Assembly: GCF_000014265.1 (NCBI RefSeq)
Contig: NC_008312.1
Span: 4,050,001-4,082,000 of the forward strand
Length of the DNA stretch: 32,000 bases
Direction of reading: 5' to 3'
Origin: Trichodesmium erythraeum IMS101
GTDB lineage: Bacteria > Cyanobacteriota > Cyanobacteriia > Cyanobacteriales > Microcoleaceae
Part shown: piece by piece, positions 3,001 through 30,154 of the stretch
Position numbering within the stretch: position 1 is the stretch's first letter
Layout: the number at the start of each line of letters is the position of its first letter
Notes under the pieces: model-generated
Told to the model about the DNA's origin: nothing
What the model saw: only the letters and a program-made list of their open reading frames with translations
The model's database searches: none
Made by a program: the position numbers and the translations under genes

Positions 3001-3341
3001 TAAGAGCTGGAAAAATTGAGGAAAAAATTTATCTCAAATATATTAATAAGTCATTTCTCAGCCGCCAGCTTTTTGACGGAAAATTATCAGATAAAAAATT
3101 AGGCAAAAAATTAGATAAAAAATTAGACAAAAAAATCAAAAGTACTCAGCCAGATATTACGGAAAATTCTCAGATGAAAAATTAGATAAAAAATTAGGCA
3201 AAAAACCAGAAGTACTCAGACAGATATTTCGGTTCAAATATTTTTTCGTGTTTGAGCGATCGCTAATTTTAGCCATCAGCTAAGAGCTGGAAAAATTGAG
3301 GAAAAAATTTATCTCAAATAATAAAGTCGTTTCTCAGCCGT
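1..3341. repeat. Satellite-like nested tandem array, 13 HIP1-anchored units of 250-287 bp, truncated by the window start
   Basis: The context GTTTGAGCGATCGCTAA recurs with the HIP1 core starting at 23, 298, 585, 859, 1146, 1420, 1670, 1936, 2187, 2449, 2700, 2976 and 3256 (spacings 275/287/274/287/274/250/266/251/262/251/276/280). Each unit has a conserved head of about 105 bp plus two paralogous half-units (GAAAATTCTCAGATGAAAAATTAG...TACTCAG[A/C]CAGATATT[A/T]C[G/C]G). Half-unit length varies through 1-5 copies of a 12-13-nt microrepeat (AAAAATTAG + 3 nt). By eye 298-858 is identical to 859-1419, and 1936 to about 2400 is identical to 2449 to about 2913 (dimer-level higher-order repeats). The array ends near 3341. 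Confidence 0.95.
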
Positions 3342-3440
3342 GAAGAAATTTCATTTGGGTTGTGCTTTTTCCAGGAATTTCCTTAACTCTACAGATATTA
3401 CCTTACCACCTCAAACCATTTTTATCTGCCAAAATAAGAT

Positions 3441-3569
3441 AGTAATCAGTTTTTGATAAATGATTTACCTTTCCAAAAACCAGCAGATAATAATCAGTTT
3501 TTGATAAATGATTTTTCAATTTACCCCCCAACAGCCAGCAAATAGTAATCAGTTTTTGATAAATGATTT
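3441..3569 (+). repeat. Three iteron-like direct repeats A[G/A]TAATCAGTTTTTGATAAATGATTT
   Basis: 26-nt copies at 3441-3466, 3489-3514 and 3544-3569 (spacing 48 and 55 bp). Each is preceded by a related CCAGCA-type motif. They lie 100 bp past the end of the large array. Confidence 0.85.
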
Positions 3570-3798
3570 TTCCCATTCAGTTATTAGCTCTCAGGGCAAT
3601 AAAGGTAGGTAAGCTCAGATAAGGCAACCAAACAACTATAAGTTGCCAGTAGAGTTTGTCTGACCATTCGCCCTTATTAGGTTTTGCTGATAAGAATGTG
3701 GTTGCTCCTGAAAAATCCTATAACCCCCACCCTTAGGTTTTCCCTGCTCCTACAAAAGCCTAGATTTTTCAAAATTTTAACTGAAACCGGTCGCCCCC

Positions 3799-3827
3799 TT
3801 GACAACCCAAAAAACTTGTTGTACATT
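3799..3827 (+). promoter_or_regulatory. Near-consensus sigma70-type promoter with no credible ORF downstream
   Basis: TTGACA (3799-3804), a 17-nt spacer, then TACATT (3822-3827). The roughly 900 bp downstream on the plus strand has no convincing ORF. Confidence 0.35.
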
Positions 3828-4446
3828 AATAATACGATAACTATCTCGGGCTACTACTACATCATGATTTTTGTTTGTTTGTACATTTTTTATTGATTTA
3901 TTGCAGTTTTTTTGATTAGTGAATAAATTCTGAAAATTGCAAGTAAGATGAGATGAAAAAAAATCAGATGAACTTATATATATAGAAAATTAAAATCAGA
4001 ATGTTGCTCGAAATTAATAAAAACAGAAAGAAACTCATAAGCCTCAGCCACATTCTTAACCATAAGCCTCTGCTTTAGAAGCCAGAGTCAAACGCAAAAG
4101 AAAAAAATAGTCAGCTTTATTTATCTTTTTGCTTAGCATGAATACAAAAAGCTCTCAGGCTAACCGCTAAAGTACTTGTTAGTTCCGAGTTTTGATAGAT
4201 AAACCAATATAAAATACATTAATTATTTATTCATTTATCAGCTTTTCACCTCAAAACTATCATATTAAACATCAAAATTACTTACCCAGATATTTCGACT
4301 CAAATACAGTATATTTTAGGTAAATGATGTACAGAATAAACAGTAAAAATACCTAGTATAGGTATATTACCCGGGTAACTGTACCATTAAATAATACAAA
4401 GGGCTGTATTTTTCCATGTTCAAGCGATCGCTTCATTTCAGTCATC

Positions 4447-4495
4447 AGTTATTAGTTATTAGTTATTAGTTATTAGTTATTAGTTATTAGTTAAA
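4447..4495. repeat. Heptanucleotide STRR-like microsatellite (AGTTATT)x6 plus a partial copy
   Basis: Perfect 7-nt units from 4447 to 4488, then AGTTAAA. HIP1 sites flank it at 4424-4431 and 4503-4510 in roughly inverted contexts. Confidence 0.95.
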
Positions 4496-4787
4496 CTAGT
4501 GAGCGATCGCTCAAGATCCAATATATAAATATTGTGAGCTAAGACTTACCCATCAAACTTTAATAACCAATTTATTAAAGTAAACGAAGGGCAAGTTCAA
4601 ACTTTCCTAAAAAATAAGTCAAGCAATAGTTATATTTTTGCCTATAGACACTTATCAGACAGAATTTTTCTAGCATTAGACCATCTGACAAACCCTCCTG
4701 GGAGGAGTTAGAAAAATTAGGAGTAGGTTGCTCCGGGCTAGAAATTTGTTAGTCACGCTTAGGGATGGGCTCCTTTAGTACCACCTT

Positions 4788-5324
4788 CTAATTTCTTGCC
4801 AAGCGATCTTCCTTAGCCAAAAAAGGCTCTAAATAGACCACAGGCAACTCCCTAGAAAAATTAGAGTTTGCCAACCTTGCCTCACTATTCTGTTCAAATG
4901 TCTCATCACTGAACAAAGCATTAGTCATATCTACCAAGGCCTGATAACCATCCACACCCTGATCCAAAGTCAATAATAATGGACAATTATTACCACTTTT
5001 AAGAGTTTTCGCACAAATAACTTCCTGCAGTGGAGTATTAGGGTCTTTGCGATATTCTAGAGTATATAAACCATGCTTGCGCAAATATTCTAAGCGCCTT
5101 TCTACTTCTTCACATCGTCTAGCGGTCGTCCAACCTCCCCCCATTTTTTTGACAATACCTAACCATGGTTTTTTACCTTGATCACCGTCATACATTACAG
5201 TCCAAACTTTTGTATTATCCTGTAACTCACAAGAAAAGCGGTCTGTTTTTTTGATCAATAGAGAAGGCGACCAAACTTGCGCAAGATCAATACCAAAACC
5301 CACAATATCCATGAACAACCCCAT
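4788..5324 (-). CDS. COP23-like (circadian oscillating protein 23 family) protein
   Basis: 178-aa ORF. The pattern F-x-C ... W ... RCEEVERRLEYLRKHGL ... VICA ... NCPLLLTL matches my memory of the COP23 family signature (conserved Cys pairs, RC-x-xVS/E-x-R motif, C-x-LLxTL). The start codon is uncertain. Confidence 0.6.
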   Translation of the reverse strand: MGLFMDIVGFGIDLAQVWSPSLLIKKTDRFSCELQDNTKVWTVMYDGDQGKKPWLGIVKKMGGGWTTARRCEEVERRLEYLRKHGLYTLEYRKDPNTPLQEVICAKTLKSGNNCPLLLTLDQGVDGYQALVDMTNALFSDETFEQNSEARLANSNFSRELPVVYLEPFLAKEDRLARN

Positions 5325-5620
5325 TATAGGAATTACTACAGCTACTATTACTGCTCATATCCCTAAGATTTTTCCATTCTCTTCCATAAGTTCCTCCTTA
5401 TTTATATATAGGTATCAAGATTTTTTGAGGGAGGTGAATAGATATGGTTAATAACCCCTAATATTTTCTCCAATTTTCTATAAGGAGTTTTCGGAAAAAA
5501 GGAAAACCAGAGAAGGAGAAAGGAATATTGTTAATTATTAAATTATTAAATTATTAAAGTTATAAATTAGGTCTTGAGAGTCAGATAAGGAGATATAGGG
5601 TACTAGAGAATAAGTAGAAT

Positions 5621-5704
5621 AGTATATATGAGCACATCTTTCCTACTATATAAATAGTAGCACAAATAAATTCAAAATGGCTTGGCTTTGCAGAAATTTT
5701 TGAC
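5621..5704. repeat. Dispersed ~85-bp repeat, copy A (contains a small hairpin)
   Basis: AGTATATATGAGCACATCTTTCC-TACTAT-ATAA-ATAGTA-GCACAAATAAATTCAAAAT... aligns with 6211-6294. The hairpin arms are 5644-5649 and 5654-5659. Confidence 0.8.
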
Positions 5705-6210
5705 TAGGTGATCAGTTATTAATTACTATTAATTACAGCCCATTTAGTAGTTGATAAAATATAGTTCTTGGAAAGAGCCGACTTGAGACCTGGTTTTTAG
5801 TCAAAAGTAGCGATCGCCTATTTATCCAGAGCAAAAATAATAAAGTTTCTAACTTATACTTTAAAAGCTAGCTATTAGCAGTCAGCTCAAGTGCTTTTCC
5901 TAAGTCATGGTGAGCCAAAAGCTAATCATCTTTTTGGTGTCGGACTTTTACAGGATATTTCGGGTATGGAGGTAGAGGGTAAACAGTAAAAATTATGTAG
6001 CGACTGGGAACATTTTACTCCCGTGGGCATACCTCATAATAATGGAAAGTTTTGTAATTTTTCTTGGAAGCTAATTCCTTTTCTTAGCTGACAGATCAAT
6101 GCTTAAAGTTCTTAAACTGTAACTCAGTTATTAAACTGTAACTATTGAGTAAATATTATTACTTGAGGGGTTAATTCATGGATGCTTTGATAATTAATTA
6201 ACTTTGAAAT

Positions 6211-6294
6211 AAGTATATATGAGCGCATCTTTCCCATTATTTATATAATAGCACAAATAAATTTAAAATCAAGACTTTGGGAAAAATTTGTTTT
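6211..6294. repeat. Dispersed ~85-bp repeat, copy B
   Basis: AAGTATATATGAGCGCATCTTTCC-CATTAT-TTAT-ATAATA-GCACAAATAAATTTAAAAT... is in the same orientation as copy A. The hairpin is retained with one C:G to T:A paired change. Confidence 0.8.
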
Positions 6295-6387
6295 GGGTAT
6301 TTTGAAGATATAAATTGTATCTAACTGAAGTGCGAAAGGGAAAGATAATTAGACTAGAAAAATATGCCCAGATATCCTTAAAAGCTG

Positions 6388-7014
6388 CTAATTTGAAGTA
6401 AGAAAATTTTTAATTAATTTAATTCCACCTTTAACAACCTCATAACCAAATATCAGAATTAGACCGCTTAAAATTGCACCCATTAAACAGAGTACCAAAC
6501 CAACCAGACTAATAAAACCATCATCATCTAACAAACCAAAGCCAGTAACAAAAATCCCGATCGCTGGTAAAGTATTAGTACCAGGAATAGGTATCATCAT
6601 TGAGATAGCCATAAGAGCGATCGCGCAACCAACCACAATTCTACCAATAATACTCGTACAAATATAACTCAAACGAGGACGAGATATCAACTCAATTTTC
6701 CGTAACCAAGGAATACCAGAGTTCAAAATTCCTTGTACTTTCTGAAGAGAAATTGTATTATTTAACCAACTCTGAGGTAACCAGGGAGTTGTAGAACCAA
6801 TTATTAGTTGAACTGCCAATAAAAACAATAAAATTCCAAATGGAATAGAATAACCAGGAGCAGGTATAGGCAAAGCTGAAGGTAGAGACAAAATTACGAA
6901 TAAAAAGCCAAAAATTCTCTCTCCTGCTAAATCAATAATATCTCTCAAAGTAACTTGAGGAGTTCGTTTTTCATCAAAAAAATATTGTTGTAATTCTACA
7001 GATAATTTAGCCAC
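6388..7014 (-). CDS. exoD: ExoD-family exopolysaccharide synthesis membrane protein
   Basis: 208-aa ORF with a GTG start. The segment GERIFGFLFVILSLPSALPIPAPGYSIPFGILLFLLAVQLIIG...PWLP is typical of the ExoD family. Several TM helices are present. Confidence 0.75.
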   Translation of the reverse strand: MAKLSVELQQYFFDEKRTPQVTLRDIIDLAGERIFGFLFVILSLPSALPIPAPGYSIPFGILLFLLAVQLIIGSTTPWLPQSWLNNTISLQKVQGILNSGIPWLRKIELISRPRLSYICTSIIGRIVVGCAIALMAISMMIPIPGTNTLPAIGIFVTGFGLLDDDGFISLVGLVLCLMGAILSGLILIFGYEVVKGGIKLIKNFLTSN

Positions 7015-7295
7015 TGATTTATAACTTTAAAAATTAAGATATATCCGGTTAAAACTCCATTATAAACCAGATGCTTTTTGATATTTTTACTTAAAATAAA
7101 TAATAATTGTTATTTTTGCGAGACTATAAGCCAGATAATTTTTCGGTCTTATTACTTGAAATAAATAATAAACATTGCTCTTACCCTAATACAAACAACA
7201 TTTTTTTTCTCTTAATATTGGTTATTTATTGAAATCAATAAAACAAGAGACTATTCCCCTAATAAAAATAAAGCAAATGAATAATAATTAATATT

Positions 7296-7323
7296 AATGG
7301 GGGAATTAAATAAAACCCCCATT
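7296..7323 (-). terminator. Candidate intrinsic terminator downstream of ahcY
   Basis: Inverted repeat AATGGGGG (7296-7303) / CCCCCATT (7316-7323) with a 12-nt loop, about 90 bp after the ahcY stop. On the minus strand it is followed by an AT-rich, T-containing tract rather than a clean U-run. Confidence 0.4.
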
Positions 7324-7413
7324 ATATATCCTAAGTAACCTTCAGAAGCTAATAGTTCGTCAGCAAATACTAAGTACTAGTTCAAGCCAATTATTACTTC
7401 TGAAAAGAAACAA

Positions 7414-8691
<1,278 letters not shown>

Positions 8692-9508: not shown

Positions 9509-11926
9509 TCAAAGTGTTTTTTTAACAACTCGATAAACGAAACTCAGAGTTGCCCAACTATTAATATCGAGAGCATAATTATCCGTTGATAACTCTAAAG
9601 ATTGAGTAGCTAATTGACTAGCACTCTGTAAATCTTGTAAAGTTGCTTGTGCGACTGCTAAAGGATTCAATATTTCTTTAATTAGCTGATCATCTCTAAT
9701 TTGAAACACCTTTCCATCAACAAGAGTTGCAATTGTTTTCTTAAATGGTTGATGGCTACAAATAATTAGGCTTTCTTCTAATCCTTCAGAACCTATTACC
9801 CTCCATCCCAAAGATTTTGTATTTTTAGAAGAATTATTAATAACTGGAGGTATATTTACACTATCTCCCGGAGAAACAATTAACTCTGTTAGTGAAAGTT
9901 GAGGATCATTCTCAAGTTGATTAGATATAGTTGGATCGACAACAAAAAAGCGCCCACTACTGTCTAAAATGACTAACATAAAATAGACTGGGCGATCGCC
10001 ATAATTATATAATTGATATTGAATTCGACTACCAATGGGTAAAGTTCCTAATGAATTACTAATTTCAGATTTGTCTATATCTTCATTGATATCAGTTAAA
10101 AATTTTGTGGTTCCATCCCTAACCCCCAAAGTTTCTCGCTTAAGAATTAACCTTGCATTTGGAGTAACAGTAGCCAAGTTAGCTCTAAGTTTGATTTGAG
10201 TAGATCCTTCATTCTTAGTTAAGCGTAGCATCTTAGCTGCCAGTAAGGTTTCCAATGGGGAACGTAACCTTTCTATTGCTCCCTTGACTGCTTCTCCTTT
10301 TTCTCCTATAGTCTTAGGTATAAGTACCTTGCCCAGAGAAAATAGAGCATAATGACCCTGAGAAGTAGAGGGTAAAATAGCAGAAGAACTTTGAGCGATA
10401 GTTGTTTCTTCTACTCGACTAAATATATAATCAGCGGCTTGTGTATCTGCTACTACGGTAACTTTAGGTATTGCTGAAAAACCACTGGTAGCATCTACCC
10501 GCTCTATTCTTGACATATTATGGTCTAGAGCTATCATCAAATTCAGAGATTGAGGTAAAACTCTAATCTTTTCTTGTACCAGAGATCCTGTCAAAAGTTG
10601 AAGATTAGGAAGAAGATTTTGAGAAGTTTTTTGTGTTTGGTCGTTGATATTTTCCTGGTTTATATCTGATAATTGTTGTGAATTATTAGTGTCAATGATA
10701 ACGGAAGCTTTTGCTTTTAAGCCATTTCGATTCTGAATTTGTAATTCAAAGCTTAAGTCTAAATCAAAATCAGGAAAAGTTTTGAATAGAGAATAAGATG
10801 TAACCGTATCAAGAATACTAACTGGTAATCCTCCTAACCATAGGTTTGCTGTTTTGCCGTTATCTTCTACTGAAGTGATTACACCCGTAGCAGAGGGTAA
10901 TAAAGGATTAAAGATATTTTGATTACTGATAGCTACTGGAATTATAGTAGGTACTTTTGTAGATTGAGCAATGTTCTGTTGTTTTGCTTGTTTAAACTCT
11001 GGTTGCTGATTAACTCCAGTTATTTGTTCTACCTCGCCAGCAGCTTGTGAAAAACTAATTTGTAGTCTGGTGGCGGGGGCTGTAGACCATAAATTTTGGG
11101 TAAGAGCATAAGTAAATAAACCAGAGCTAAAACCATTCCAGTCAGCTTCAGTAGCAAATTGGTTTTGTTGGCTAGCCTTAAGAACTAAGCCTTTGAGTTG
11201 ACTTTCATAAATTTCCTGTTCTCCTAAAATATTTTGTTGATGTCGCAGTTGCATTTGCATTGCTTTCTCTTTCATATTGATTTGCTCTGTAGTCAAACTA
11301 GGTCGAGAGCGAATTCTGAGATTACCTTGCAAATTTTTACCAGGATATACATAGCTAGTATCTAATATAGTTACTACTTTTTTCGTAGGGAGCGATCGCA
11401 ATAATAACCAGAGAGTCTCTTCTAAAACATCATTTATTTCTGCGCCCTCATTATTCGAAGCTATACCATCTATTGGAACTAGACTATTTTGAAAAATTAA
11501 ATTTGAGGTACTTAATTCATTCTGTTTATTTTGATCAATCATCTTAGTCACACGACTACCATAGCCACTAAAATGAAACACAACCAAGTCATCTGGTTTA
11601 GCTTGATCAGTTAAATGACTAATAAAAGCTGTTTCTATATTTTCCCTAGTAGCTTGTTCATTTGTGAGAGTCAGAATATCAGCAGGTAAAAAACCAAACC
11701 GATGAATTAGCAATTCCCGTTGCATCTCCACATCTGTAACACACCCAGACAGAGATGCATTTAGATATTCATTAATACCTACTAAGAATGCTAATTTACC
11801 TCCTGTAGTTTGAGCTAAGGCTTCTGAATAATAATTTTGGAGGCGCCACCACCCTGCTTGATTGATTCCCAATACTCCTAGGGCCAAACTAGCCCTTTGC
11901 AGAAATTCCCGCCGCTTTAATCCCAT
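9509..11926 (-). CDS. Tat-signal peptidase C14 (orthocaspase) homologue with Tyr/Ser in place of the catalytic His/Cys, plus a ~550-aa C-terminal region of unknown function
   Basis: 805-aa ORF. The N-terminus MGLKRREFLQRASLALGVLG is a twin-arginine signal. The p20-like block is LAFLVGINEY...GCVTDVEMQRELLIHRFGF...ATRENI...VVFHFSGYGSRV. The usual SGHG His is Tyr122 (codon 11561-11563). The usual D-x-C-H-S-G motif is ILDTSYVYPG, with Ser191 (codon 11354-11356). Confidence 0.85.
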   Translation of the reverse strand: MGLKRREFLQRASLALGVLGINQAGWWRLQNYYSEALAQTTGGKLAFLVGINEYLNASLSGCVTDVEMQRELLIHRFGFLPADILTLTNEQATRENIETAFISHLTDQAKPDDLVVFHFSGYGSRVTKMIDQNKQNELSTSNLIFQNSLVPIDGIASNNEGAEINDVLEETLWLLLRSLPTKKVVTILDTSYVYPGKNLQGNLRIRSRPSLTTEQINMKEKAMQMQLRHQQNILGEQEIYESQLKGLVLKASQQNQFATEADWNGFSSGLFTYALTQNLWSTAPATRLQISFSQAAGEVEQITGVNQQPEFKQAKQQNIAQSTKVPTIIPVAISNQNIFNPLLPSATGVITSVEDNGKTANLWLGGLPVSILDTVTSYSLFKTFPDFDLDLSFELQIQNRNGLKAKASVIIDTNNSQQLSDINQENINDQTQKTSQNLLPNLQLLTGSLVQEKIRVLPQSLNLMIALDHNMSRIERVDATSGFSAIPKVTVVADTQAADYIFSRVEETTIAQSSSAILPSTSQGHYALFSLGKVLIPKTIGEKGEAVKGAIERLRSPLETLLAAKMLRLTKNEGSTQIKLRANLATVTPNARLILKRETLGVRDGTTKFLTDINEDIDKSEISNSLGTLPIGSRIQYQLYNYGDRPVYFMLVILDSSGRFFVVDPTISNQLENDPQLSLTELIVSPGDSVNIPPVINNSSKNTKSLGWRVIGSEGLEESLIICSHQPFKKTIATLVDGKVFQIRDDQLIKEILNPLAVAQATLQDLQSASQLATQSLELSTDNYALDINSWATLSFVYRVVKKTL

Positions 11927-21417: not shown

Positions 21418-21595
21418 GGGAAGGTTGGTAAAAGGTTGCTAATGAGCTTGTCGTTTTTTTGCTTGTTTGTGGGCTTTGACGTTTGCAAGTTTGCTTCCAT
21501 CACTACAAGTCCCTAGAACGTTTATGTCAATATCTACGCCTATAACTGCTCGTTTTTTAGGGGTAGACTTGGGCTGATATTCGTATTTATTTTTT

Positions 21596-22001
21596 GCGTT
21601 GATTAAAAAGTCATGAGTATAAGCGAGTTAACGCAACCTTACTTTTATAATATCAAAAAAAATCTCGTTTGCCAAGGGAATTTCTTTGGGAATTTCGTTT
21701 TTCTCAAGGTTAACTAAGGTTAATTGATTCTTGGGATAATTGGGGTCGTTTTTTTTTGCGTTGATTAAAAAGTCATGAGTATAAGCGAGTTAACCCCACC
21801 TTGCTTTTATAATATCAAAAAAAATCTCGTTTGCCAAGGGAATTTCTTTGGGAATTTCGTTTTTCTCAAGGTTAACTAAGGTTAATTGATTCTTGGGATA
21901 ATCGGGGTCGTTTTTTTTGCGTTGATTAAAAAGTCATAAGTATATGCGAGTTCACCCCACCATACTTTTATAATATCAAAAAAAATCTCGTTTGCCAAGA
22001 T
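21596..22001. repeat. Tandem repeat of ~162 bp, about 2.5 copies
   Basis: GCGTTGATTAAAAAGTCAT[G/A]AGTAT starts at 21596, 21758 and 21919 (periods 162 and 161). The third copy diverges after TTTGCCAAG near 22000. Confidence 0.9.
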
Positions 22002-22394: not shown

Positions 22395-24116
22395 TTAATT
22401 ACTAGAAGTTACTCCTAAAATACATTTTGCTTCTAGTAAAACTAAGTTATGAATATCTAGAACTCGACATTTTTCTGGCACATTTAATAAGGTGGGAGTT
22501 ATGCCATTTTCCATCTGACTTTTAACTAGGTTGGCGGCGGTATAATTTAATTGTTGAAGACGATGGTTTTTTCTGACATATTCTAAGGTTAATGCTTGAG
22601 AATCTAATAACCAAAAGTCAATTTTATATTTGTGGATAATTTTTTTGACTTCTTCTAGGTTCGGACTATATTGGGCTTGGATTAAATCTTTGGCTCGTTG
22701 TTTGATTTGATTATAATATCCTTGGTGATAAGGTAAAGCATATTCGGAACTTACTAATATTGAACGTTTGGCAAATGTGGGAATATTATTAGCTTCTAAT
22801 GCTAAGGAGGCGATGCGAATATCTGAGGGTTGTTGGGCTAAATATTCATAAAGTTGGGGTGCTTTTCCGACTACATAATTGGTTACGGGAAAGTTGTTGG
22901 TTAGGGCTGGATATATAATAATTAAGGTTAATACTATATATATAGATGTAGATATGGAGATAGCTCTTATTTTTTGGAGTGGTTGGTTTTTGGATGAATT
23001 GTTGAGGAGATGGAGCTTTTTTCTGATTAATTCTATGATTAATGTGAAGGCTATTCCTCCTGCTAAAGCCATGATTATTCTGAGGCTATGTTGACTGTAA
23101 CGACTGGGATGATGTAGTCGAAATAATAATAGGTGGGCGGCTATAAATATTCCGGTTGATGCTAAGGCTAATTCTGGTAAAAGGATTATTTTGTTGGTGA
23201 TTTTTTGGGTTATATTTTTTTTGTTGAAGCTTAAGAAAATGAATAATAATAATCCTGCCCAAACTTGGGGGGGAAGAAAAGATTGGGATAGCCATTCTGG
23301 AGGAATAATGCCGGAGCGATCGCCTGTTAACCAAAAGTCAAAGTTGTTGTTTGAAAAGAAGGATGCTCTACCACCGGGGAAAAATTCTGGTAGTTTTTTG
23401 GCTTGGGTTAATGTAATGATTGGGCTATATTCGGAGGTGTTTAAAGCGTAGGGTAAAAGTATGAGGAATGCTGTGGTTAAACCTATGGTTAATATGGTGA
23501 GTTTTTGTTGGTTTGGGAGGTGGAGAAAGTCTAAGGTTAGGAGGGCGGCACTGAGGAAAACTCCTTGGGGATAAAATAATCCTAGAAGGGTAATTGTTAT
23601 GATTATTCCTAGGGAGGATTTTTTGAGGAAGTAATGGAGAAATCCTAGGAATAAGGGATAGAAAAATGCTCTGGGGGTGCCGGAGATGAGGTCGTCTTTT
23701 AGCCAAAGATTTTGATTTAAAAATAATGTACTGAGAAATCCTGCGAGTGGGATGGGTAATATTTGTATTGCTACTTTGAAACAGTAGGCGGTTGTGATTA
23801 ATCCTAATATTATTGGCAGGATTTTATTTAGTAATAAGGGTGGAATTTTGATGAGGGAAAATAGTTTATAAAGGTGGGTATATCCTTGGGGGGCTACTGA
23901 TTGAAAATAGTCGGCAATAATGTCGTTGGGAAAAAGTTCGGGGTTGAGAAATTTTGCCATCCAAAAGATGTGGGACCGGGCGTCGTCTTGGACTATATAT
24001 TGATGACTAAGGGCGGGAATTATTCCTAAAATTCCACAGGTTATGGCTAGGGTGAGGCTGAGATAAAACCAGAGTTTGACTGGGGTTAATGTGGTTAAAG
24101 TTTTGGCTGGGTTCAT
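22395..24116 (-). CDS. Polytopic integral membrane protein, possibly a GT-C-type glycosyltransferase
   Basis: 573-aa ORF with about 12 hydrophobic helices. An acidic motif (VQDDARSH) follows TM1, as in GT-C enzymes. The ~170-aa soluble C-terminal domain is unassigned, and the function is not established. Confidence 0.8.
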   Translation of the reverse strand: MNPAKTLTTLTPVKLWFYLSLTLAITCGILGIIPALSHQYIVQDDARSHIFWMAKFLNPELFPNDIIADYFQSVAPQGYTHLYKLFSLIKIPPLLLNKILPIILGLITTAYCFKVAIQILPIPLAGFLSTLFLNQNLWLKDDLISGTPRAFFYPLFLGFLHYFLKKSSLGIIITITLLGLFYPQGVFLSAALLTLDFLHLPNQQKLTILTIGLTTAFLILLPYALNTSEYSPIITLTQAKKLPEFFPGGRASFFSNNNFDFWLTGDRSGIIPPEWLSQSFLPPQVWAGLLLFIFLSFNKKNITQKITNKIILLPELALASTGIFIAAHLLLFRLHHPSRYSQHSLRIIMALAGGIAFTLIIELIRKKLHLLNNSSKNQPLQKIRAISISTSIYIVLTLIIIYPALTNNFPVTNYVVGKAPQLYEYLAQQPSDIRIASLALEANNIPTFAKRSILVSSEYALPYHQGYYNQIKQRAKDLIQAQYSPNLEEVKKIIHKYKIDFWLLDSQALTLEYVRKNHRLQQLNYTAANLVKSQMENGITPTLLNVPEKCRVLDIHNLVLLEAKCILGVTSSN

Positions 24117-24307: not shown

Positions 24308-27300
24308 CTATGTTGCATATTGCTGTAATATCTTTTTTGCCCAGATCTGTAGTTGTTCGTCTGAGTCGTTTTCGGCTCTGTCTTGTAATAGTGGGATGGT
24401 TTGGGGATGGTCTGGGTATTGTTTGACTATTGCTTCTAGTGCTGTTTGTCGAGGGTTGTCTTGAATTTCATGTATACGTTCAAAGGGATCGTTGAGGGCG
24501 TTGTCATAAAATATTTCAAAAGTTCCGGGCTCGTGTTTCCAACCAGTTGCTATTTGTCCGACGGCTTCAGTTCGCACCCGCCAACTTTCATCAGACAGAA
24601 CCCTTTGTTTGAGTAATTCTAAAATTCCGGGCTCGTGTTTCCAAACAGTTGCTATTTGTTCGACGGCTTCAGTTCGCACAAACTCACTTTCATCAGACAC
24701 AACCCTTGGTTTGAGTAATTCTAAAATTCCGGGCTCGTGTTTCCAACCAGTTACTATTTGTCGGAGGGCTTCAGTTCGCACCTGCCAACTTTCATCAGAC
24801 ACAACCCTTTGTTTGAGTAGTTCTAAAATTCCGGGCTCGTGTTTCCAACCAGTTGCTATTTGTCGGAGGGCTTCAGTTCGCACCCACCAACTTTCATCAG
24901 ACACAACCCTTTCTTTGAGTAATTCTAAAATTCCGGGCTCGTGTTTCCAAGCAGTTGCTATTTGTCGGAGGGCTTCACGTCGCACATCCGAATTTTCATC
25001 AGACACAACCCATTGTTTGAGTAGTTCTAAAATTCCGGGCTCGTGTTTCCAACCAGTTGCTATTTGTCGGACGGCTTCAGTTCGCACCCACCAACTTTCA
25101 TCAGACACAACCCTTTGTTTGAGTAATTCTAAAATTCCGGGCTCGTGTTTCCAAGCAGTTGCTATTTGTCGGAGGGCTTCAGTTCGCACAGACTCACTAT
25201 CATCAGACACAACCCATTGTTTGAGTAGTTCTAAAATTCCGGGCTCGTGTTTCCAACTAGTTGCTATTTGTCGGAGGGCTTCAGTTCGCACATCCAAGTT
25301 TTCATCAGACACAACCCATTGTTTGAGTAATTCTAAAATTCCGGGCTCGTGTTTCCAACTAGTTGCTATTTGTTCGAGTACTTCACGTCGCACATCCGAA
25401 TTTTCATTAGACACAACCCATTGTTTGAGTAATTCTAAAATTCTGGGCTCGTGTTTCCAACCAGTTGCTATTTGTTCGAGTGCTTCACGTCGCACATCCA
25501 AATTTTCATCAGACACAACCCATTGTTTGAGTAATTCTAAAATTCCGGGCTCGTGTTTCCAACCAGTTGCTATTTGTCGGACGGCTTCAGTTCGCACATC
25601 CGAATTTTCATTAGACACAACCCATTGTTTGAGTAATTCTAAAATTCCGGGCTCGTGTTTCCAACCAGTTGCTATTTGTTCGAGTGCTTCACGTCGCACA
25701 TACTCACTTTCATCAGACACAACCCTTTCTTTGAGTAATTCTAAAATTCCGGGCTCGTGTTTCCAAGCAGTTGCTATTTGTCGGAGGGCTACACCTCGTA
25801 CATTCAAGTCATCATCAGACACAACTCTTTCTTTGAGTAATTCTAAAATTCCGGGCTCGTGTTTCCAACCAGTTGCTATTTGTCCGACGGCTTCAGTTCG
25901 CACAAACCAACTTTCATCAGACACAACCCATTGTTTGAGTAATTCTAAAATTCCGGGCTCGTGTTTCCAACCAGTTGCTATTTGTCCGACGGCTTCAGTT
26001 CGCACAAACCAACTTTCATCAGACACAACCCATTGTTTGAGTAATTCTAAAATTCCGGGCTCGTGTTTCCAACCAGTTGCTATTTGTCGGACGGCTTCAG
26101 TTCGCACATCCGAGTCGTCATCAGACACAGCCCTTTGTTTGAGTAATTCTAAAATTCCGGGCTCGTGTTTCCAACCAGTTGCTATTTGTCGGAGGGCTTC
26201 AGTTCGCACCTGCCAACTATCATCAGACACAACCCTTTGTTTGAGTAATTCTAAAATTCCGGGCTCGTGTTTCCAACCAGTTGCTATTTGTTCGAGTGCT
26301 TCACGTCGCACAGACTCACTATCATCAGACACAACCCATTGTTTGAGTAATTCTAAAATTCCGGGCTCGTGTTTCCAACCAGTTGCTATTTGTCGGAGGG
26401 CTTCAGTTCGCACTTGCCAACTATCATCAGACACAACCCATTGTTTGAGTAATTCTAAAATTCCGGGCTCGTGTTTCCAACCAGTTGCTATTTGTCGGAC
26501 GGCTTCAGTTCGCACTTGCCAACTATCATCAGACACAACCCTTTGTTTGAGTAATTCTAAAATTCCGGGCTCGTGTTTCCAACCAGTTGCTATTTGTCGG
26601 ACGGCTTCAGTTCGCACAGACTCACTATCATCAGACACAACCCATTGTTTGAGTAATTCTAAAATTCCGGGCTCGTGTTTCCAACCAGTTGCTATTTGTC
26701 GGACGGCTTCAGTTCGCACAGACTCACTATCATCAGACACAACCCATTGTTTGAGTAATTCTAAAATTCCGGGCTCGTGTTTCCAAACAGTTGCTATTTG
26801 TTCGACGGCTTCACGTCGCACAGACTCACTATCATCAGACACAGCCCATTGTTTGAGTAATTCTAAAATTCCCGGCTCATGTTTCCAACCAGTTGCTATT
26901 TGTCGGAGGGCTTCAGTTCGCACATGCCAACTTTCATTAGACACAACCCATTGTTTGAGTAATTCTAAAATTCCCGGCTCATGTTTCCAACCAGTTGCTA
27001 TTTGTCGGAGGGCTTCAGTTCGCACATCCAAATTTTCATCAGACACAACCCATTGTTTGAGTAATTCTAAAATTCCGGGCTCGTGTTTCCAACCAGTTGC
27101 TATTTGTCGGACGGCTTCAGTTCGCACAGACTCACTATCATCAGACACAACCCATTGTTTGAGTAATTCTAAAATTCCGGGCTCGTGTTTCCAACCGGTA
27201 GCTATTTGTCGGACGGCTTCAGTTCGCACAAACCAACTTTCATCAGACACAACCCTTTCTTTAAGCCAAGCATAAGTTGAAGAGTCATCCCTCCAGGATG

Positions 27301-29536
27301 TAGCCACTATTTCCACAGCTTGAGTACGAATTTCACGAACTAACTCTGCATCTTCATCATAAGATTCATAAAAATAACCAAGGTCATGCCCAGTCAAACC
27401 TTTTAACCTATTTAATAACCGAGAACTCACATCACCAATACCCTGAAGACTCCTAACTTCAAACAAACACTTGCCCGCCAAAAATAAATTCTGAAACTTT
27501 TCCTCTTCCCCATCTTTTTCCATCAAATAACTAATAATATCTCCCACAAACTTAGCATCTATCATCCCAGCAATTAACCGCAATACTTCATGCCATTTTT
27601 CATCCCGCCAATGGTTACCGAAAACATCATTTATTAACCCATCTTTTCCCAAAGTTTGTGTTTCTTTAAACTGCCAAACAAAACTCCAAGCACAGAAATA
27701 TTCCAAAAAGGTTCGATGCACAAAAGCATAATATCCACCCCCAACAAAACACAAAATAAAATTACGAACCCGCAACTGTTCTATCAACGCCCTAGCCACA
27801 GTTGTCACATCATTAATATCTACACTTTCTAGATAATCTTTAATGATCTTTTTTAAACTATTTTCATCAATCAAATTACCAGCCAAACCTTCTTTATTCT
27901 GTTGCATAAAATCAGCTACTCGGCGCAAAATTTCTTGCTTATCTTTATAGTCAATAGTTATCGGGTCAATCTTAGCATCAACTAATGTTCTTTCCATATC
28001 CCATTGCTGTAATAAAATCAGAGAAGCTTGATTATAAAGTTCCGCCCTATCTCTGGGCAATTCTTGATGACGATTTAAAATAGCCATCATAGTTAATAAA
28101 AAAGGATTTTCCGACAATTGCTTAATAGCTGAATAATCATTAATTGCTCGTTTCAATTTTTCTCTTTTCCGCTCTTTTTCTCGCTCATCTTGATAAGTTA
28201 AATCATGCCAAGTTTGAATAAAATTATCAATTTGTTCTGACTCTAAATTTTGCAACATAAAATGATAAAATTCAGCATCCCGGAGTTGTTGTGGCTGATA
28301 ACCAATTACTCTAGAAGTAACAATAACTCGGACATTTTTATAGTCATTTGTAAATCGATGAATATCAGTAATTATTTCCTTTCTTTTAGCAGGTTCAAAA
28401 ACTTCATCCAACCCATCAAACATCACAATAGCATCACCATTTTGTAGTTTTGCATAAAGTTCTTGTTGAGGTAAATGGCAAGTTACACCGCTACCTTTTT
28501 CCAGAAAATCTAGAAAATTTTGGCATTTATTAGTCTCATAATTTCTCACATAAGTCTGTAGTTCAATTAATAGAGGAATTGGTTTTGAAGGCAAATCTAT
28601 TAGAGGTAATTCTGCCCATTCTAAAGCGATATATTGTAATAAAGTAGATTTGCCAGAACCAGGGTCTCCCAGAATAACTAAATATTTATATTCGGTATTT
28701 TCTATTAGTTCTAAAACCGAGCGAACTGGCTGTTCTAAATATCTGCGTCGGTCAGCTTCCAATTGTTCTGGAGAAAATTCTATTTCTAACTGCCCAGTCT
28801 CTTTTAATTGTTGGAGATATTCTTTAGGAACTTCATACAATTGAGGCATAAATTCTTGAGATTCCCGAACATTTTGAGGAATAAACATCTGCCAGAGTTT
28901 CAGTTCATTATAGGTATAACCACTAGTATCTAAACTTTCTAATTTGAGATTTCCATATCGTTCTTGGATTCCTTCTTGGTATTTTTCGAGGTCAAATTCT
29001 GGTGTAATTTTATAATTTTGATTTGCTATTTTATCGAGGTTTTGTGAATCTAATATTTTCCGTAATTCATCAGAATTTATCCGAATTGCTTGAACTTTTT
29101 TCCCATATCTTTTTGCCACTCTTAACCAGTCAAAATCAGGTGGCAAAGTTGGAATAATTTCCTTGGCAACATCAGCTAATATCTTAATATCTACAATTTT
29201 TATATTATTATCAAAAGCACTACCCAAAGTTTCTCGAACTGACTTCTTTTTGAGAAATTGTTTGAAAGGTGGAATATATTTCTTTAGCTGGTTTTCCTCT
29301 AAATCTGCATCTTCCAATTCTTGCTGTGCTAATTCTAAAAATTCTTTAGTTGCTTTTCCTATAGCTTCTTGCAAAGGTTTTTTATTTGTTAAATCTTTAA
29401 TAACATTACCTAAGCTAGTTTTAAAGAAGTCTTTAATACAATCTTTAGCAGCATCTTTAGCTAAATCTTCCAGAATAGGTTTAAATACAAACCCAACCCC
29501 TTGAGTCACTCCCCAAACAATTAACCAGTCAATCAT
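24308..29536 (-). CDS. NLR-like STAND NTPase: unknown N-terminal domain + NACHT + 27 HEAT-type repeats
   Basis: 1742-aa ORF with RBS AAAGGATGAAATAATTATG. Walker A is LGDPGSGKST (aa 289-298, Lys codon 28649-28651). Walker B is IVMFDGLDEV (aa 370-379). The repeats carry the SD-x3-VR-xEA-xxQIA signature typical of PBS-lyase/HEAT-like repeats. Confidence 0.95.
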   Translation of the reverse strand: MIDWLIVWGVTQGVGFVFKPILEDLAKDAAKDCIKDFFKTSLGNVIKDLTNKKPLQEAIGKATKEFLELAQQELEDADLEENQLKKYIPPFKQFLKKKSVRETLGSAFDNNIKIVDIKILADVAKEIIPTLPPDFDWLRVAKRYGKKVQAIRINSDELRKILDSQNLDKIANQNYKITPEFDLEKYQEGIQERYGNLKLESLDTSGYTYNELKLWQMFIPQNVRESQEFMPQLYEVPKEYLQQLKETGQLEIEFSPEQLEADRRRYLEQPVRSVLELIENTEYKYLVILGDPGSGKSTLLQYIALEWAELPLIDLPSKPIPLLIELQTYVRNYETNKCQNFLDFLEKGSGVTCHLPQQELYAKLQNGDAIVMFDGLDEVFEPAKRKEIITDIHRFTNDYKNVRVIVTSRVIGYQPQQLRDAEFYHFMLQNLESEQIDNFIQTWHDLTYQDEREKERKREKLKRAINDYSAIKQLSENPFLLTMMAILNRHQELPRDRAELYNQASLILLQQWDMERTLVDAKIDPITIDYKDKQEILRRVADFMQQNKEGLAGNLIDENSLKKIIKDYLESVDINDVTTVARALIEQLRVRNFILCFVGGGYYAFVHRTFLEYFCAWSFVWQFKETQTLGKDGLINDVFGNHWRDEKWHEVLRLIAGMIDAKFVGDIISYLMEKDGEEEKFQNLFLAGKCLFEVRSLQGIGDVSSRLLNRLKGLTGHDLGYFYESYDEDAELVREIRTQAVEIVATSWRDDSSTYAWLKERVVSDESWFVRTEAVRQIATGWKHEPGILELLKQWVVSDDSESVRTEAVRQIATGWKHEPGILELLKQWVVSDENLDVRTEALRQIATGWKHEPGILELLKQWVVSNESWHVRTEALRQIATGWKHEPGILELLKQWAVSDDSESVRREAVEQIATVWKHEPGILELLKQWVVSDDSESVRTEAVRQIATGWKHEPGILELLKQWVVSDDSESVRTEAVRQIATGWKHEPGILELLKQRVVSDDSWQVRTEAVRQIATGWKHEPGILELLKQWVVSDDSWQVRTEALRQIATGWKHEPGILELLKQWVVSDDSESVRREALEQIATGWKHEPGILELLKQRVVSDDSWQVRTEALRQIATGWKHEPGILELLKQRAVSDDDSDVRTEAVRQIATGWKHEPGILELLKQWVVSDESWFVRTEAVGQIATGWKHEPGILELLKQWVVSDESWFVRTEAVGQIATGWKHEPGILELLKERVVSDDDLNVRGVALRQIATAWKHEPGILELLKERVVSDESEYVRREALEQIATGWKHEPGILELLKQWVVSNENSDVRTEAVRQIATGWKHEPGILELLKQWVVSDENLDVRREALEQIATGWKHEPRILELLKQWVVSNENSDVRREVLEQIATSWKHEPGILELLKQWVVSDENLDVRTEALRQIATSWKHEPGILELLKQWVVSDDSESVRTEALRQIATAWKHEPGILELLKQRVVSDESWWVRTEAVRQIATGWKHEPGILELLKQWVVSDENSDVRREALRQIATAWKHEPGILELLKERVVSDESWWVRTEALRQIATGWKHEPGILELLKQRVVSDESWQVRTEALRQIVTGWKHEPGILELLKPRVVSDESEFVRTEAVEQIATVWKHEPGILELLKQRVLSDESWRVRTEAVGQIATGWKHEPGTFEIFYDNALNDPFERIHEIQDNPRQTALEAIVKQYPDHPQTIPLLQDRAENDSDEQLQIWAKKILQQYAT
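24524..27262 (-). repeat. 27 tandem 102-bp (34-aa) intragenic repeats
   Basis: The unit is WKHEPGILELLKQWVVSDxxxxVRTEAxRQIATG. WKHEP occurs 27 times, and I counted the 102-bp period directly (CCGGGCTCGTG at 24627, 24729, ...). Most of each unit is nucleotide-identical between copies. Confidence 0.95.
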
Positions 29537-30154
29537 AATTATTTCATCCTTTATATGTTAGTTATTTGTTATTATATATGAATATTTTATTTGGTCAATA
29601 TCTGGAATTATATCCATGTTTGTTAAGTACTAATTTTATCTTCTTACCTCCTGCTGAGAGTCAGCTATTTTTCTCGTGGCGATCGCGTCAACAATAAACC
29701 ATAAAAAAAATCAAAAAATTAACTGAGATAACCTGATATTTTAGTGTGTTATATTAGGATATTTTAATTAACTTTAAAATACATTTATAGCGTTGAGTAA
29801 ATTACCTATTAAAGAAAGAGCCAGCGCAAAAAAATAATTGCACTAGCTCCTAGGGTTCAGCTAATTATGATAAACCCCAAGGGATAGGAAATGGAGAAAA
29901 AGCAGAAAATCTGTTTCTCAATTTAAAGCTTCCAACAAATCCACATTAACCCAAGGGTTGGAGGTTTTTATGTGTTTCTAAATTATATAATAACATATTT
30001 TTTGAATTTTTTAACCAATCCATATTAACTTCAGGGATGGGGAGACATTCTTAGAGACAGCCACCTAAAATCTATCTCCCATAAATCCGATTTCTAACAG
30101 CTTTGAAGCAATGAAAAAATTATTAACAAGTGAGTATTTAAAATATCAAGTATT

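What the first reader, a model, noticed from the sequence alone, without database searches (positions are those of the whole stretch)
24524..27262. Differences between repeats sit in a few codons while the rest is almost nucleotide-identical
Aligning the 27 units by eye, the stretch GILELLK and WKHEPG (nt ...TTGAGTAATTCTAAAATTCCGGGCTCGTGTTTCCAACCAGTTGCTATTTGT...) is essentially invariant. Variation is concentrated as follows.
- Unit positions 19-22: DSES, ESWF, ENLD, ESWH, DSWQ, DDSD, DDLN, ESEY, ENSD, ESWW, ESEF, ESWR.
- Positions 13-14: QW, QR, ER, PR.
- Position 25: T, R or G.
- Position 28: V or L.
- Position 29: R, E or G.
- Position 34: G, A, S or V.
Some adjacent units are identical (the two DDSES...AVRQIATG units, and the two ESWF...AVGQIATG units). 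The same variable cassettes recur non-adjacently. This pattern fits concerted evolution by unequal recombination or gene conversion, combined with diversification of a putative ligand-binding surface. It also makes this 2.7-kb stretch prone to assembly collapse or expansion.
Basis: seen in the sequence. Interest (0 to 1): 0.75.

Follow-up and report, generated by a model that had tools for sequence, protein, structure and literature searches.

The report
Hypervariable HEAT-repeat sensor of cyanobacterial NLR
The 2.7-kb repeat is the sensor end of a Trichodesmium NLR-type (NACHT) immune-like protein: 27 almost identical 34-residue HEAT units that differ mainly at about 8-10 positions, most of them predicted to be surface-exposed, which is the same evolutionary pattern already described for fungal NLR receptors.

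Summary
Window 24308..29536 (-) encodes a 1742-aa NNH2-NACHT-HEAT protein. Its C-terminal half is 27 in-frame 102-nt units with no indels.

- **Where the variation sits.** Among the 26 full units, 83% of nucleotide diversity lies in 10 codons (13, 14, 19-22, 25, 28, 29, 34). The other 24 codons are 98% identical, synonymous sites included.
- **Independent replication.** Eight of these sites (14, 19-22, 25, 28, 29) are also the only sites with pN above pS in 18 other arrays of the family. In the window they give pN/pS of about 3.5.
- **Homogenisation.** Framework synonymous divergence is 0.05 inside the array and 0.29-0.41 between arrays. Variable modules are mosaic (Rm at least 7).
- **Structure.** AlphaFold (pLDDT 96) gives a helix-turn-helix solenoid. 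On helix B the variable residues face away from the apolar stripe. Sites 21, 22, 25 and 29 coincide with the randomised binding positions of alphaRep, the closest solved relatives.
- **Assembly.** A 99%-identical short-read contig lacks exactly 25 units, and 15 of 49 homologous genes run off a contig end.

The phenomenon is the known "high internal conservation" NLR repeat regime, so this is a new member of a known kind. Ligand, effector and true copy-number polymorphism remain untested.

The parts
24308..29536 (-). Whole gene: 1742-aa NLR-like STAND protein with NNH2, NACHT and HEAT-array parts.
   Evidence: ORF. Pfam NNH2 E=1.8e-58, NACHT E=1.6e-9 (38.3 bits against a cutoff of 26.7), HEAT_2 E=6e-106. 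More than 2600 homologues in filamentous cyanobacteria.
28925..29464 (-). NNH2 (NACHT N-terminal helical domain 2), aa 25-204. Presumed effector or adaptor; its function is unknown.
   Evidence: Pfam PF22734, full-length match 1-181/181. The AF2 model is all-helical with pLDDT 64. No PDB fold match.
28205..28684 (-). NACHT NTPase core, aa 285-444, with Walker A GDPGSGKST and Walker B-like IVMFDGLDEV.
   Evidence: Pfam PF05729. The motifs are read from the translation.
27194..27295 (-). Unit 0 (aa 748-781), the N-terminal capping unit. Its first half is degenerate (WRDDSSTYAWLKERVV) and its second half is canonical.
24542..27193 (-). 26 full 34-aa (102-nt) HEAT-like units, aa 782-1665. Each unit is a loop at 1-6, helix A at 7-17, a turn at 18-20 and helix B at 21-34. 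Hypervariable codons are 13, 14, 19-22, 25, 28, 29 and 34.
24311..24541 (-). C-terminal cap (WKHEPGTFEIFYDNALNDPF...QQYAT). It is unique sequence and is conserved in paralogues.
29571..29598 (-). Best sigma-70-like promoter match, TTGACC-16-TATAAT, 35 nt upstream of the ATG. This is a consensus match only.

Best explanation
The repeat array is the ligand-sensing domain of a stand-alone NLR-type STAND NTPase (NNH2-NACHT-HEAT) from Trichodesmium erythraeum or a very close relative.

**Shown.**
- Twenty-seven 34-residue HEAT-like helix-turn-helix units stack into an alpha-solenoid.
- A rigid framework of 24 codons is kept about 98% nucleotide-identical across units, synonymous sites included.
- Diversity is held at about 8-10 codons: the A-B turn, the first turn and exposed face of helix B, and the end of helix A.
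- Modules recombine among units.
- The same sites are hypervariable in independent paralogous and orthologous arrays.

**Inferred.**
- Intra-array unequal crossing-over and gene conversion both homogenise the framework and reshuffle variable cassettes. They also change unit number.
- Diversifying or balancing selection retains amino-acid diversity on a long ligand-binding ridge or surface.
- Binding of a non-self protein (for example from a phage) or a modified self protein would release NACHT autoinhibition. That would drive NTP-dependent oligomerisation and activate the N-terminal NNH2 module, probably as an abortive-infection or cell-death response in the filament. This follows what is known for characterised bacterial NACHT/Avs proteins and fungal NLRs.
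For: - Architecture.
- Repeat anatomy and clustering of variation.
- Independent replication: in 18 other arrays the only sites with pN above mean pS are 14, 19, 20, 21, 22, 25, 28 and 29.
- In the window those 8 sites give pN 0.344 against pS 0.098. The remaining 26 codons give pN/pS 0.54, and the whole unit gives 1.77 (bootstrap 1.36-2.57).
- Homogenisation: framework nt identity is 0.98 within the array and 0.81-0.90 between arrays. Framework pS is 0.047 within and 0.29-0.41 between.
- Mosaicism: 144 of 276 site pairs show four gametes, and Rm is at least 7.
- Structure: AF2 pLDDT 96.1 and pTM 0.87, a regular A/B helix solenoid. Foldseek hits are karyopherin, Integrator and PP2A-type HEAT solenoids.
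- Helical wheel: the variable residues of helix B have mean direction 40 degrees, and invariant V23/A27/I31 have 240 degrees.
- The closest solved sequences are alphaRep binders (4zv6_A, E=1e-11). Their randomised positions 18, 19, 22, 23, 26 and 30 align to our 21, 22, 25, 26, 29 and 33. In alphaRep-target complexes that variegated surface is the interface (PMC3754942).
- NNH, NACHT and HEAT are among the N-terminal, central and antigen-receptor-type C-terminal modules catalogued for bacterial NACHT proteins, some of which defend against phage (10.1101/2022.07.19.500537).
- The same evolutionary regime is documented in fungal NLRs, including a NACHT/HEAT gene (PMC4986451). It has been noted for WD/TPR repeats of bacterial NLRs (10.1101/2020.01.06.895854).
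Against: - No ligand, phenotype or expression data exist.
- The protein matches no PADLOC defence family beyond P-loop level.
- It has no conserved neighbour gene.
- The NNH2 domain has no fold match, so the output activity is unknown.
- Positive selection is not rigorously shown. pN/pS here is a pairwise, frequency-weighted measure on non-independent, recombining units. My hand count of minimal mutational steps at the hypervariable codons (about 19 non-synonymous to 4 synonymous) is close to the neutral site ratio. The synonymous versus non-synonymous frequency-spectrum test gives p=0.076.
- Position 14 (W/R) lies on the apolar side of helix A, and 28 (V/L) is a conservative change. Not every variable site is clearly a ligand contact.
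- No model coordinates were available, so solvent exposure was inferred rather than measured.
Confidence: 0.75

Rival explanations
1. A young, neutrally evolving array. A recent burst of tandem duplication produced near-identical units. The variable sites are simply unconstrained surface positions accumulating neutral change, with no diversifying selection and no sensor role for the variation.
For: - A hand count of minimal mutational steps at the hypervariable codons gives a non-synonymous to synonymous ratio close to the site ratio (inference from the codon table).
- The frequency-spectrum test is only marginal (p=0.076).
- Adjacent units are only weakly more alike than distant ones (p=0.076).
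Against: - The same 8 sites are hypervariable in 18 independent arrays of differing age and internal identity.
- Pairwise pN at these sites exceeds pS 3.5-fold in the window, and whole-unit pN/pS is 1.77 with a bootstrap lower bound of 1.36.
- Four-gamete violations (Rm at least 7) are not expected from duplication plus point mutation alone.
- Non-synonymous variants reach 6-12 of 26 units, while no synonymous variant exceeds 3.
Confidence: 0.12
2. Assembly artefact. The number and order of units, and perhaps some cassette combinations, in this window are products of mis-assembly of a shorter or different real array.
For: - A 99.2-99.6% identical syntenic contig (L001, MEGAHIT k141) has exactly 25 fewer units.
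- A Trichodesmium MAG contig (L058) ends inside the array and shows a different unit order.
- 15 of 49 homologous genes run off a contig end at or in the array.
- Exact repeats up to 150 nt exist in the array.
- Short-read assemblies of such NLR repeats are shown to be unreliable in Podospora (PMC12222747).
Against: - The window array is perfectly in frame through 27 units with intact caps.
- No exact repeat of 204 nt or more exists, so reads or clones longer than about 200 nt can order it.
- Collapse makes arrays shorter, not longer.
- The L001 junction lies in a 22-nt identical tract, just above what I recall, without checking it here, to be MEGAHIT's smallest default k of 21. That points to L001 as the artefact.
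- Arrays of 22 and 29 units occur in Okeania.
- This rival concerns only unit count and order, not the hypervariability pattern, which is family-wide.
Confidence: 0.1
3. Targeted hypermutation by a diversity-generating retroelement (DGR), as described for other putative antigen sensors of multicellular bacteria.
For: DGRs diversify some NLR-like conflict proteins in multicellular bacteria (PMC10907252 abstract; Kibby supplementary discussion).
Against: - No reverse-transcriptase domain was found among the window ORFs of at least 120 aa that were scanned, and no template repeat was seen.
- Variable columns have all four bases as the major base (G 13, T 10, A 10, C 9), and substitutions are of all types, so there is no adenine-specific signature.
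- The variation is distributed over 26 tandem units rather than one C-terminal variable region. The described DGR targets carry FGS/CLec-type domains, not HEAT arrays.
Confidence: 0.01
4. A scaffold or housekeeping HEAT protein, for example related to phycobilisome lyase or NblB-type HEAT proteins. In that case the repeats serve as a structural spacer, and variation reflects tolerance rather than recognition.
For: The repeats score against the NCBIfam NblB model (112.6 bits) and against phycocyanobilin lyase in the PDB (5n3u_B, E=0.013).
Against: - The NblB score is far below the model cutoff of 300.
- The repeats are fused to NNH2-NACHT, a STAND switch architecture.
- There are multiple divergent paralogues per genome.
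- At a syntenic locus the NLR is 71% identical while its neighbouring gene is 91% identical, which fits a conflict gene.
Confidence: 0.03

Closest known systems
[quoted passage not shown]
   Same: - NACHT with C-terminal superstructure-forming repeats.
- Units about 80-90% identical to each other.
- Concerted evolution with repeat shuffling.
- A handful of hypervariable positions per unit on the predicted interaction surface.
- Repeat-number differences between genomes.
- Short-read assemblies are unreliable.
   Different: - The organism is a bacterium (cyanobacterium), not a fungus.
- The repeat is a 34-aa PBS-lyase-type HEAT unit.
- The N-terminal module is NNH2 rather than HET, HeLo or sesB.
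- There are 27 units, against about 10-11 in functional het alleles.
- No allorecognition phenotype is known, and repeat-number polymorphism is not verified by long reads here.
Bacterial NACHT (bNACHT) / Avs STAND anti-phage proteins (10.1101/2022.07.19.500537; PMC13581612)
   Same: - Tripartite architecture: N-terminal module, NACHT, C-terminal repeat sensor.
- NNH and HEAT are among the domain types listed for bacterial NACHT proteins.
- Enrichment and paralogue expansion in multicellular cyanobacteria.
   Different: - No hit to any PADLOC defence model beyond the P-loop.
- Characterised sensors are mostly divergent TPR-like repeats rather than near-identical tandem units.
- No defence phenotype or ligand is known for this family.
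alphaRep artificial binders and their natural HEAT-like parent family (PMC3754942; PDB 4zv6, 4xl5, 6gwc)
   Same: - Closest solved sequences (E=1e-11).
- Same helix-turn-helix unit with the D-x-x-VR-x-x-A motif.
- The library's randomised binding positions coincide with natural hypervariable sites 21, 22, 25 and 29.
- The principle is the same: identical framework modules with variable surface residues.
   Different: - alphaRep has a 31-aa unit; this one has 34 aa because the inter-unit loop WKHEPG is longer.
- alphaRep positions 23 and 30 (our 26 and 33) are invariant here.
- Our 13, 14, 19, 20, 28 and 34 vary instead.
- This is a natural protein fused to a NACHT switch.
Bacterial NLRs with highly conserved WD40/TPR repeats in Actinobacteria and Cyanobacteria (noted in 10.1101/2020.01.06.895854, citing Hu 2017 and Marold 2015)
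   Same: - Prokaryotic NLR architecture.
- Repeat units 80-90% identical.
- Proposed rapid diversification of binding specificity.
   Different: - That text names WD and TPR repeats, not HEAT.
- It gives no per-site analysis.

Membership tests
NACHT-clade STAND NTPase (NLR-like) | NACHT domain with Walker A and Walker B motifs | tested here: met
   Pfam PF05729 scores 38.3 bits against a cutoff of 26.7, aa 285-444. GDPGSGKST and IVMFDGLDEV are read in the translation.
NACHT-clade STAND NTPase (NLR-like) | Tripartite architecture: N-terminal effector/adaptor, central NOD, C-terminal repeat sensor | tested here: met
   NNH2 (aa 25-204), NACHT and 27 HEAT units.
Characterised anti-phage bNACHT/Avs systems | Match to a curated defence-system model | tested here: not met
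   PADLOC gives only P-loop-level hits (mad8, PtuA; E at least 1e-4).
Characterised anti-phage bNACHT/Avs systems | Protection against phage, or activation by a phage protein | not testable with these tools
   This needs genetics.
HEAT / PBS-lyase HEAT-like alpha-solenoid repeats | Sequence match to HEAT models, and a helix-turn-helix unit stacking into a solenoid | tested here: met
   Pfam HEAT_2 E=6e-106. AF2 pLDDT 96 with two helices per unit. Foldseek hits to HEAT solenoids. alphaRep E=1e-11.
NLR repeats with high internal conservation (HIC; Paoletti 2007, Dyrka 2014) | Units of one gene about 80-90% identical to each other over at least 100 aa | tested here: met
   Mean pairwise aa identity is 82.3% (87% to the consensus) and nt identity is 90.7%, over 884 aa. 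This is slightly under the strict 85% cut used in PMC4986451 and inside the 80-90% range.
NLR repeats with high internal conservation (HIC) | Concerted evolution: units are more alike within a gene than between genes, synonymous sites included | tested here: met
   Framework nt identity is 0.98 within against 0.81-0.90 between. pS is 0.047 against 0.29-0.41. 157 of 181 nearest neighbours lie within the same array.
NLR repeats with high internal conservation (HIC) | Diversifying selection at a few positions on the interaction surface | tested here: inconclusive
   pN/pS is 3.5 at independently defined sites, and the surface mapping by helical wheel and alphaRep alignment agrees. However, no recombination-aware test was run, the step-count omega is about 1, and the SFS test gives p=0.076.
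NLR repeats with high internal conservation (HIC) | Repeat-number or repeat-order polymorphism between individuals | tested here: inconclusive
   L001 has 25 fewer units, and L058 has another order plus unit types absent from the window. Both are short-read assemblies, so artefact cannot be excluded.
DGR-diversified variable region | Nearby reverse transcriptase and template repeat, with adenine-specific mutagenesis | tested here: not met
   No RT domain among the scanned window ORFs of at least 120 aa. All four bases vary, with all substitution types.

The most novel reading that the evidence does not exclude
Trichodesmium cells are reported to carry many genome copies (my own knowledge, not tested here). 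Intra-array unequal recombination and gene conversion could therefore generate different HEAT-cassette orders among genome copies or among cells of one filament or colony. That would give a somatic-like repertoire of NLR sensors in a bacterium, rather than diversity only between lineages. The different unit order and novel unit types in the about 99%-identical L058 and L001 contigs would then partly reflect real within-population heterogeneity.
Probability: 0.07. Interest if true: 0.85.

Novelty: new member of a known kind. Interest (0 to 1): 0.42.

Why it matters
This is an unusually clean prokaryotic example of the receptor-diversification regime known from fungal NLRs.

- It has 26 units with 98% framework identity.
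- It belongs to a family of more than 2600 cyanobacterial NNH2-NACHT-HEAT proteins, and the same hypervariable sites are shared across the sampled arrays.
- This extends the [quoted passage not shown] solution to HEAT repeats in bacteria.
- It independently recovers four of the six positions that protein engineers randomise in alphaRep binders.
- It points to concrete residues (19-22, 25, 29) for ligand-hunting in a keystone marine nitrogen fixer.

On the practical side, these genes are systematically truncated or collapsed in short-read genomes and MAGs. Database lengths and repeat counts for this family should therefore not be trusted.

Tried and rejected
- **PDB sequence search with a single sequence.** phmmer with the 11-unit fragment gave nothing. 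The profile search was needed.
- **Metagenome scans.** Two exact-pattern scans of JGI metagenome contigs found no contig: the unique unit-0 sequence and the invariant unit core. No further alleles could be compared.
- **Literature search for NNH2.** It returned only chemistry papers.
- **NNH2 effector domain.** The AF2 model has pLDDT 64 and Foldseek against the PDB gave no match below E=1. A HeLo/MLKL/CC-like pore-forming bundle, which I had suspected from the hydrophobic N-terminus, is neither supported nor excluded.
- **Defence-family and NCBIfam scans.** PADLOC gave no family assignment, and NCBIfam gave only a sub-threshold NblB hit.
- **Conserved partner gene.** The downstream 573-aa membrane protein, GGT, SDR and the metacaspase are not found beside homologues in other genera. 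The NLR appears to be stand-alone.
- **DGR.** Rejected.
- **Rfam.** No RNA family in the window.
- **Promoter-like sites.** The sites repeated once per unit are consensus artefacts of the repeat.
- **Solvent accessibility.** It could not be computed, because the structure tool returns no coordinates.
Full report
**What is there.** The finding lies inside one long gene on the minus strand, window 24308..29536, encoding 1742 aa.
- Pfam finds a full-length NNH2 domain (NACHT N-terminal helical domain 2, aa 25-204, E=1.8e-58).
- It also finds a NACHT NTPase (aa 285-444, 38.3 bits against a cutoff of 26.7) and a very strong HEAT_2 signal (E=6e-106) over the C-terminal half.
- Walker A (GDPGSGKST) and a Walker B-like IVMFDGLDEV are visible in the translation.
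- The protein is therefore an NLR-like STAND NTPase with a HEAT-repeat C-terminus.
- Members of its 90% cluster are annotated Trichodesmium erythraeum or Trichodesmium sp..

**Checking the observation.**
- TRF reports one array at 24515..27262: period 102, 26.9 copies, 91% matches and no indels.
- In coding phase there is a capping unit 0 (aa 748-781) with a degenerate first half. It is followed by 26 full units that each start WKHEPG and are spaced exactly 34 aa apart, and then by a unique C-terminal cap.
- Units 1=5=6 and 12=13 are identical at nucleotide level.
- Cassettes such as DDSES (x6), DENLD (x3) and DDSWQ (x3) recur non-adjacently.
- Ten codons carry 83% of nucleotide diversity.
- The top-10 positions hold 91% of non-consensus residues. 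Under a uniform null the maximum was 61% in 100,000 draws.

**Is it a property of this gene or of a family?**
- The non-repeat N-terminal 781 aa finds more than 2600 homologues at E below 1e-10. Nearly all are from filamentous cyanobacteria (Trichodesmium, Okeania, Dapis, Nostoc, Calothrix and others). Most are about 1200 aa long.
- In GTDB representative genomes there are several paralogues per genome.
- Every array examined has the 34-aa period and high internal nucleotide identity (0.64-0.87).
- The highest-entropy positions recur in almost every array: chiefly 19-22 and 25, often with 14 and 29.
- The window's array is the most homogeneous: 0.907 nt identity among the 26 full units. It is among the longest; Okeania SIO2C9 has 29 units.

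**Concerted evolution.**
- Over the 24 framework codons, units are 98% nt-identical within the window array. They are only 81-90% identical to units of other arrays.
- 157 of 181 units have their nearest neighbour in their own array.
- Each paralogue carries its own homogenised framework: WKHEPG, WKQEPG, WKNEPG, WKHQPG or WKDEPG.
- Synonymous divergence at framework codons is 0.047 inside the window array and 0.29-0.41 between arrays.
- Protein-level constraint cannot explain identity at synonymous sites. Homogenisation by conversion or unequal crossing-over, or very recent amplification, is required.
- A pure duplication history is disfavoured. 144 of 276 informative site pairs show all four gametes, and at least 7 recombination or recurrent-mutation events are needed within the 102-nt unit. 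The same 18-22 cassette is also found with different 25/28-29/34 states.

**Selection.**
- To avoid choosing sites post hoc, I defined hypervariable sites from 18 other arrays with the window excluded. The only codons whose within-array pN exceeds mean pS are 14, 19, 20, 21, 22, 25, 28 and 29.
- In the window those eight codons give pN 0.344 against pS 0.098.
- The other 26 codons give a ratio of 0.54. The whole unit gives 1.77 (bootstrap 1.36-2.57).
- Caveats apply. Units are non-independent and recombining.
- A hand count of minimal mutational steps at the hypervariable codons (about 19 non-synonymous to 4 synonymous) is near the neutral site ratio.
- Non-synonymous variants reach higher copy frequency than synonymous ones (at most 3 of 26), but this excess is only marginal (p=0.076).
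- Diversifying or balancing selection is therefore well supported but not rigorously proven.

**Structure and location of variable sites.**
- An AlphaFold2 model of unit 0 plus ten units, using an in-register alignment of 22 array segments, has pLDDT 96.1 and pTM 0.87.
- Each unit is a loop at 1-6, helix A at 7-17, a turn at 18-20 and helix B at 21-34.
- Foldseek against the PDB returns HEAT/ARM solenoids such as karyopherins, Integrator and CAND1.
- On helix B the variable residues 21, 22, 25, 28 and 29 point to 40 degrees on the helical wheel. The invariant apolar V23/A27/I31 point to 240 degrees, the opposite face.
- A profile search of PDB sequences finds the artificial alphaRep binders as the closest solved relatives (4zv6_A, E=1e-11).
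- In that alignment, alphaRep's randomised positions 18, 19, 22, 23, 26 and 30 fall on our 21, 22, 25, 26, 29 and 33. Four of the six coincide with the natural hypervariable sites.
- Those alphaRep positions were chosen because they are hypervariable in the natural family. Crystal structures of complexes show that the variegated surface is the binding interface (PMC3754942).
- Position 14 (W/R) lies on the apolar side of helix A, and 28 (V/L) is a conservative change. These two may tune packing rather than contact ligand.
- I could not compute solvent accessibility, because no coordinates are returned.

**Assembly fragility and polymorphism.**
- The exact 1742-aa protein is not in the 15-billion-protein collection.
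- Its nearest entry, P0001, comes from a MEGAHIT k141 contig (L001). That contig is syntenic and 99.1-99.6% nt-identical in the flanks, but its array is exactly 25 units shorter.
- The L001 junction lies in a 22-nt tract shared by unit 0 and unit 25. This is just above what I recall to be MEGAHIT's smallest default k of 21, which I did not verify here, so a graph collapse is the likelier explanation.
- A Trichodesmium sp. ALOHA_ZT_67 MAG contig (L058, N-terminal nt identity 99.3%) ends inside the array.
- L058 shows a different unit order. It also carries unit types absent from the window: R14 with DDSES, and W14 with DDSWQ-T-VR. Because R14 and DDSES lie within 27 nt, that combination probably exists in real reads, which hints at true allelic differences.
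- Across GTDB genomes, 15 of 49 homologous genes run off a contig end at or inside the array.
- The window array contains exact repeats up to 150 nt but none of 204 nt or more.
- In Podospora, NLR repeats of this type are recovered correctly only from long reads (PMC12222747).
- True copy-number polymorphism remains undecided.

**Context.**
- The gene has no conserved partner. Its neighbours (gamma-glutamyltranspeptidase, a 573-aa membrane protein, an SDR) accompany it only in orthologous Trichodesmium loci.
- No reverse-transcriptase domain was found among the scanned window ORFs of at least 120 aa. The variable columns show no adenine bias, which excludes a DGR.
- PADLOC gives no defence-family assignment.
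- The NNH2 domain models poorly (pLDDT 64) and has no PDB fold match, so the output activity is unknown.

**Comparison with what is known.**
- The pattern is the "high internal conservation" regime described for fungal NLRs. It combines concerted evolution by repeat shuffling, repeat-number polymorphism and diversifying selection at a few surface positions.
- It was first shown for Podospora WD40 genes. It was then shown for ANK, TPR and a NACHT/HEAT gene (PMC4986451).
- Dyrka et al. noted that bacterial NLRs also have WD and TPR repeats with 80-90% internal identity and might diversify similarly (10.1101/2020.01.06.895854).
- Kibby et al. list NNH among the N-terminal domains and HEAT among the antigen-receptor-type C-terminal repeats of bacterial NACHT proteins. 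They report paralogue expansion in cyanobacteria (10.1101/2022.07.19.500537).
- In the papers I read, I found no per-site description of this regime for HEAT arrays of cyanobacterial NLRs. Conceptually it is a new member of a known kind.

**Verdict.** The most likely mechanism is a recombination-homogenised HEAT solenoid sensor whose exposed helix-B and turn residues are kept diverse, fused to a NACHT switch. Confidence is about 0.75. Interest is moderate (0.42): it is a textbook-quality example with practical consequences for annotation and a clear path to experiments, but it is not a surprise to specialists.

Noticed in passing
window 1..3337: A large non-coding tandem array with period about 274 nt, 12.4 copies and 86% matches, containing nested 12-nt AGATAAAAAATT-type runs. 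There is no ORF of 120 aa or more and no Rfam family.
   Followed up: partly
window 21590..21999: An intergenic 162-nt tandem repeat with 2.5 copies at 95% identity, downstream of the 573-aa membrane-protein gene.
   Followed up: no
window 24609..27275 (+): An 888-aa ORF antisense to the HEAT array. It is stop-free only because the repeated unit has no stop in that frame, so it is almost certainly not a gene.
   Followed up: partly
window 9509..11926 (-): An 805-aa protein with a Peptidase_C14 (caspase/metacaspase) domain lies about 12 kb from the NLR gene. It is not found next to NLR homologues in other loci.
   Followed up: partly
L055 (Trichodesmium sp. MAG_R02), 2963..7353: The locus has the same synteny as the window, with gamma-glutamyltranspeptidase 91% identical. 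The adjacent NLR N-terminal region is only 71% identical. Either the NLR evolves much faster than its neighbour or it has been replaced at this locus.
   Followed up: no
L009 (Okeania sp. SIO2C9) and L019: Paralogous genes carry 29 and 22 HEAT units (1796 and 1630 aa), so very long arrays are not unique to the window.
   Followed up: partly
L046 (MAG labelled Desulfobacteraceae), 6001..8349: A 54%-identical homologue of this otherwise cyanobacterial family sits in a deltaproteobacterial MAG. This is either mis-binning or horizontal transfer.
   Followed up: no
window 22395..24116 (-): A 573-aa multi-pass hydrophobic protein lies directly downstream of the NLR. It has no Pfam or NCBIfam match, and it is 100% conserved in L001.
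   Followed up: partly
window 25358..25765 (units 16-19): The cassettes alternate NENSD / DENLD / NENSD / DENLD, which suggests a two-unit higher-order duplication inside the array.
   Followed up: no
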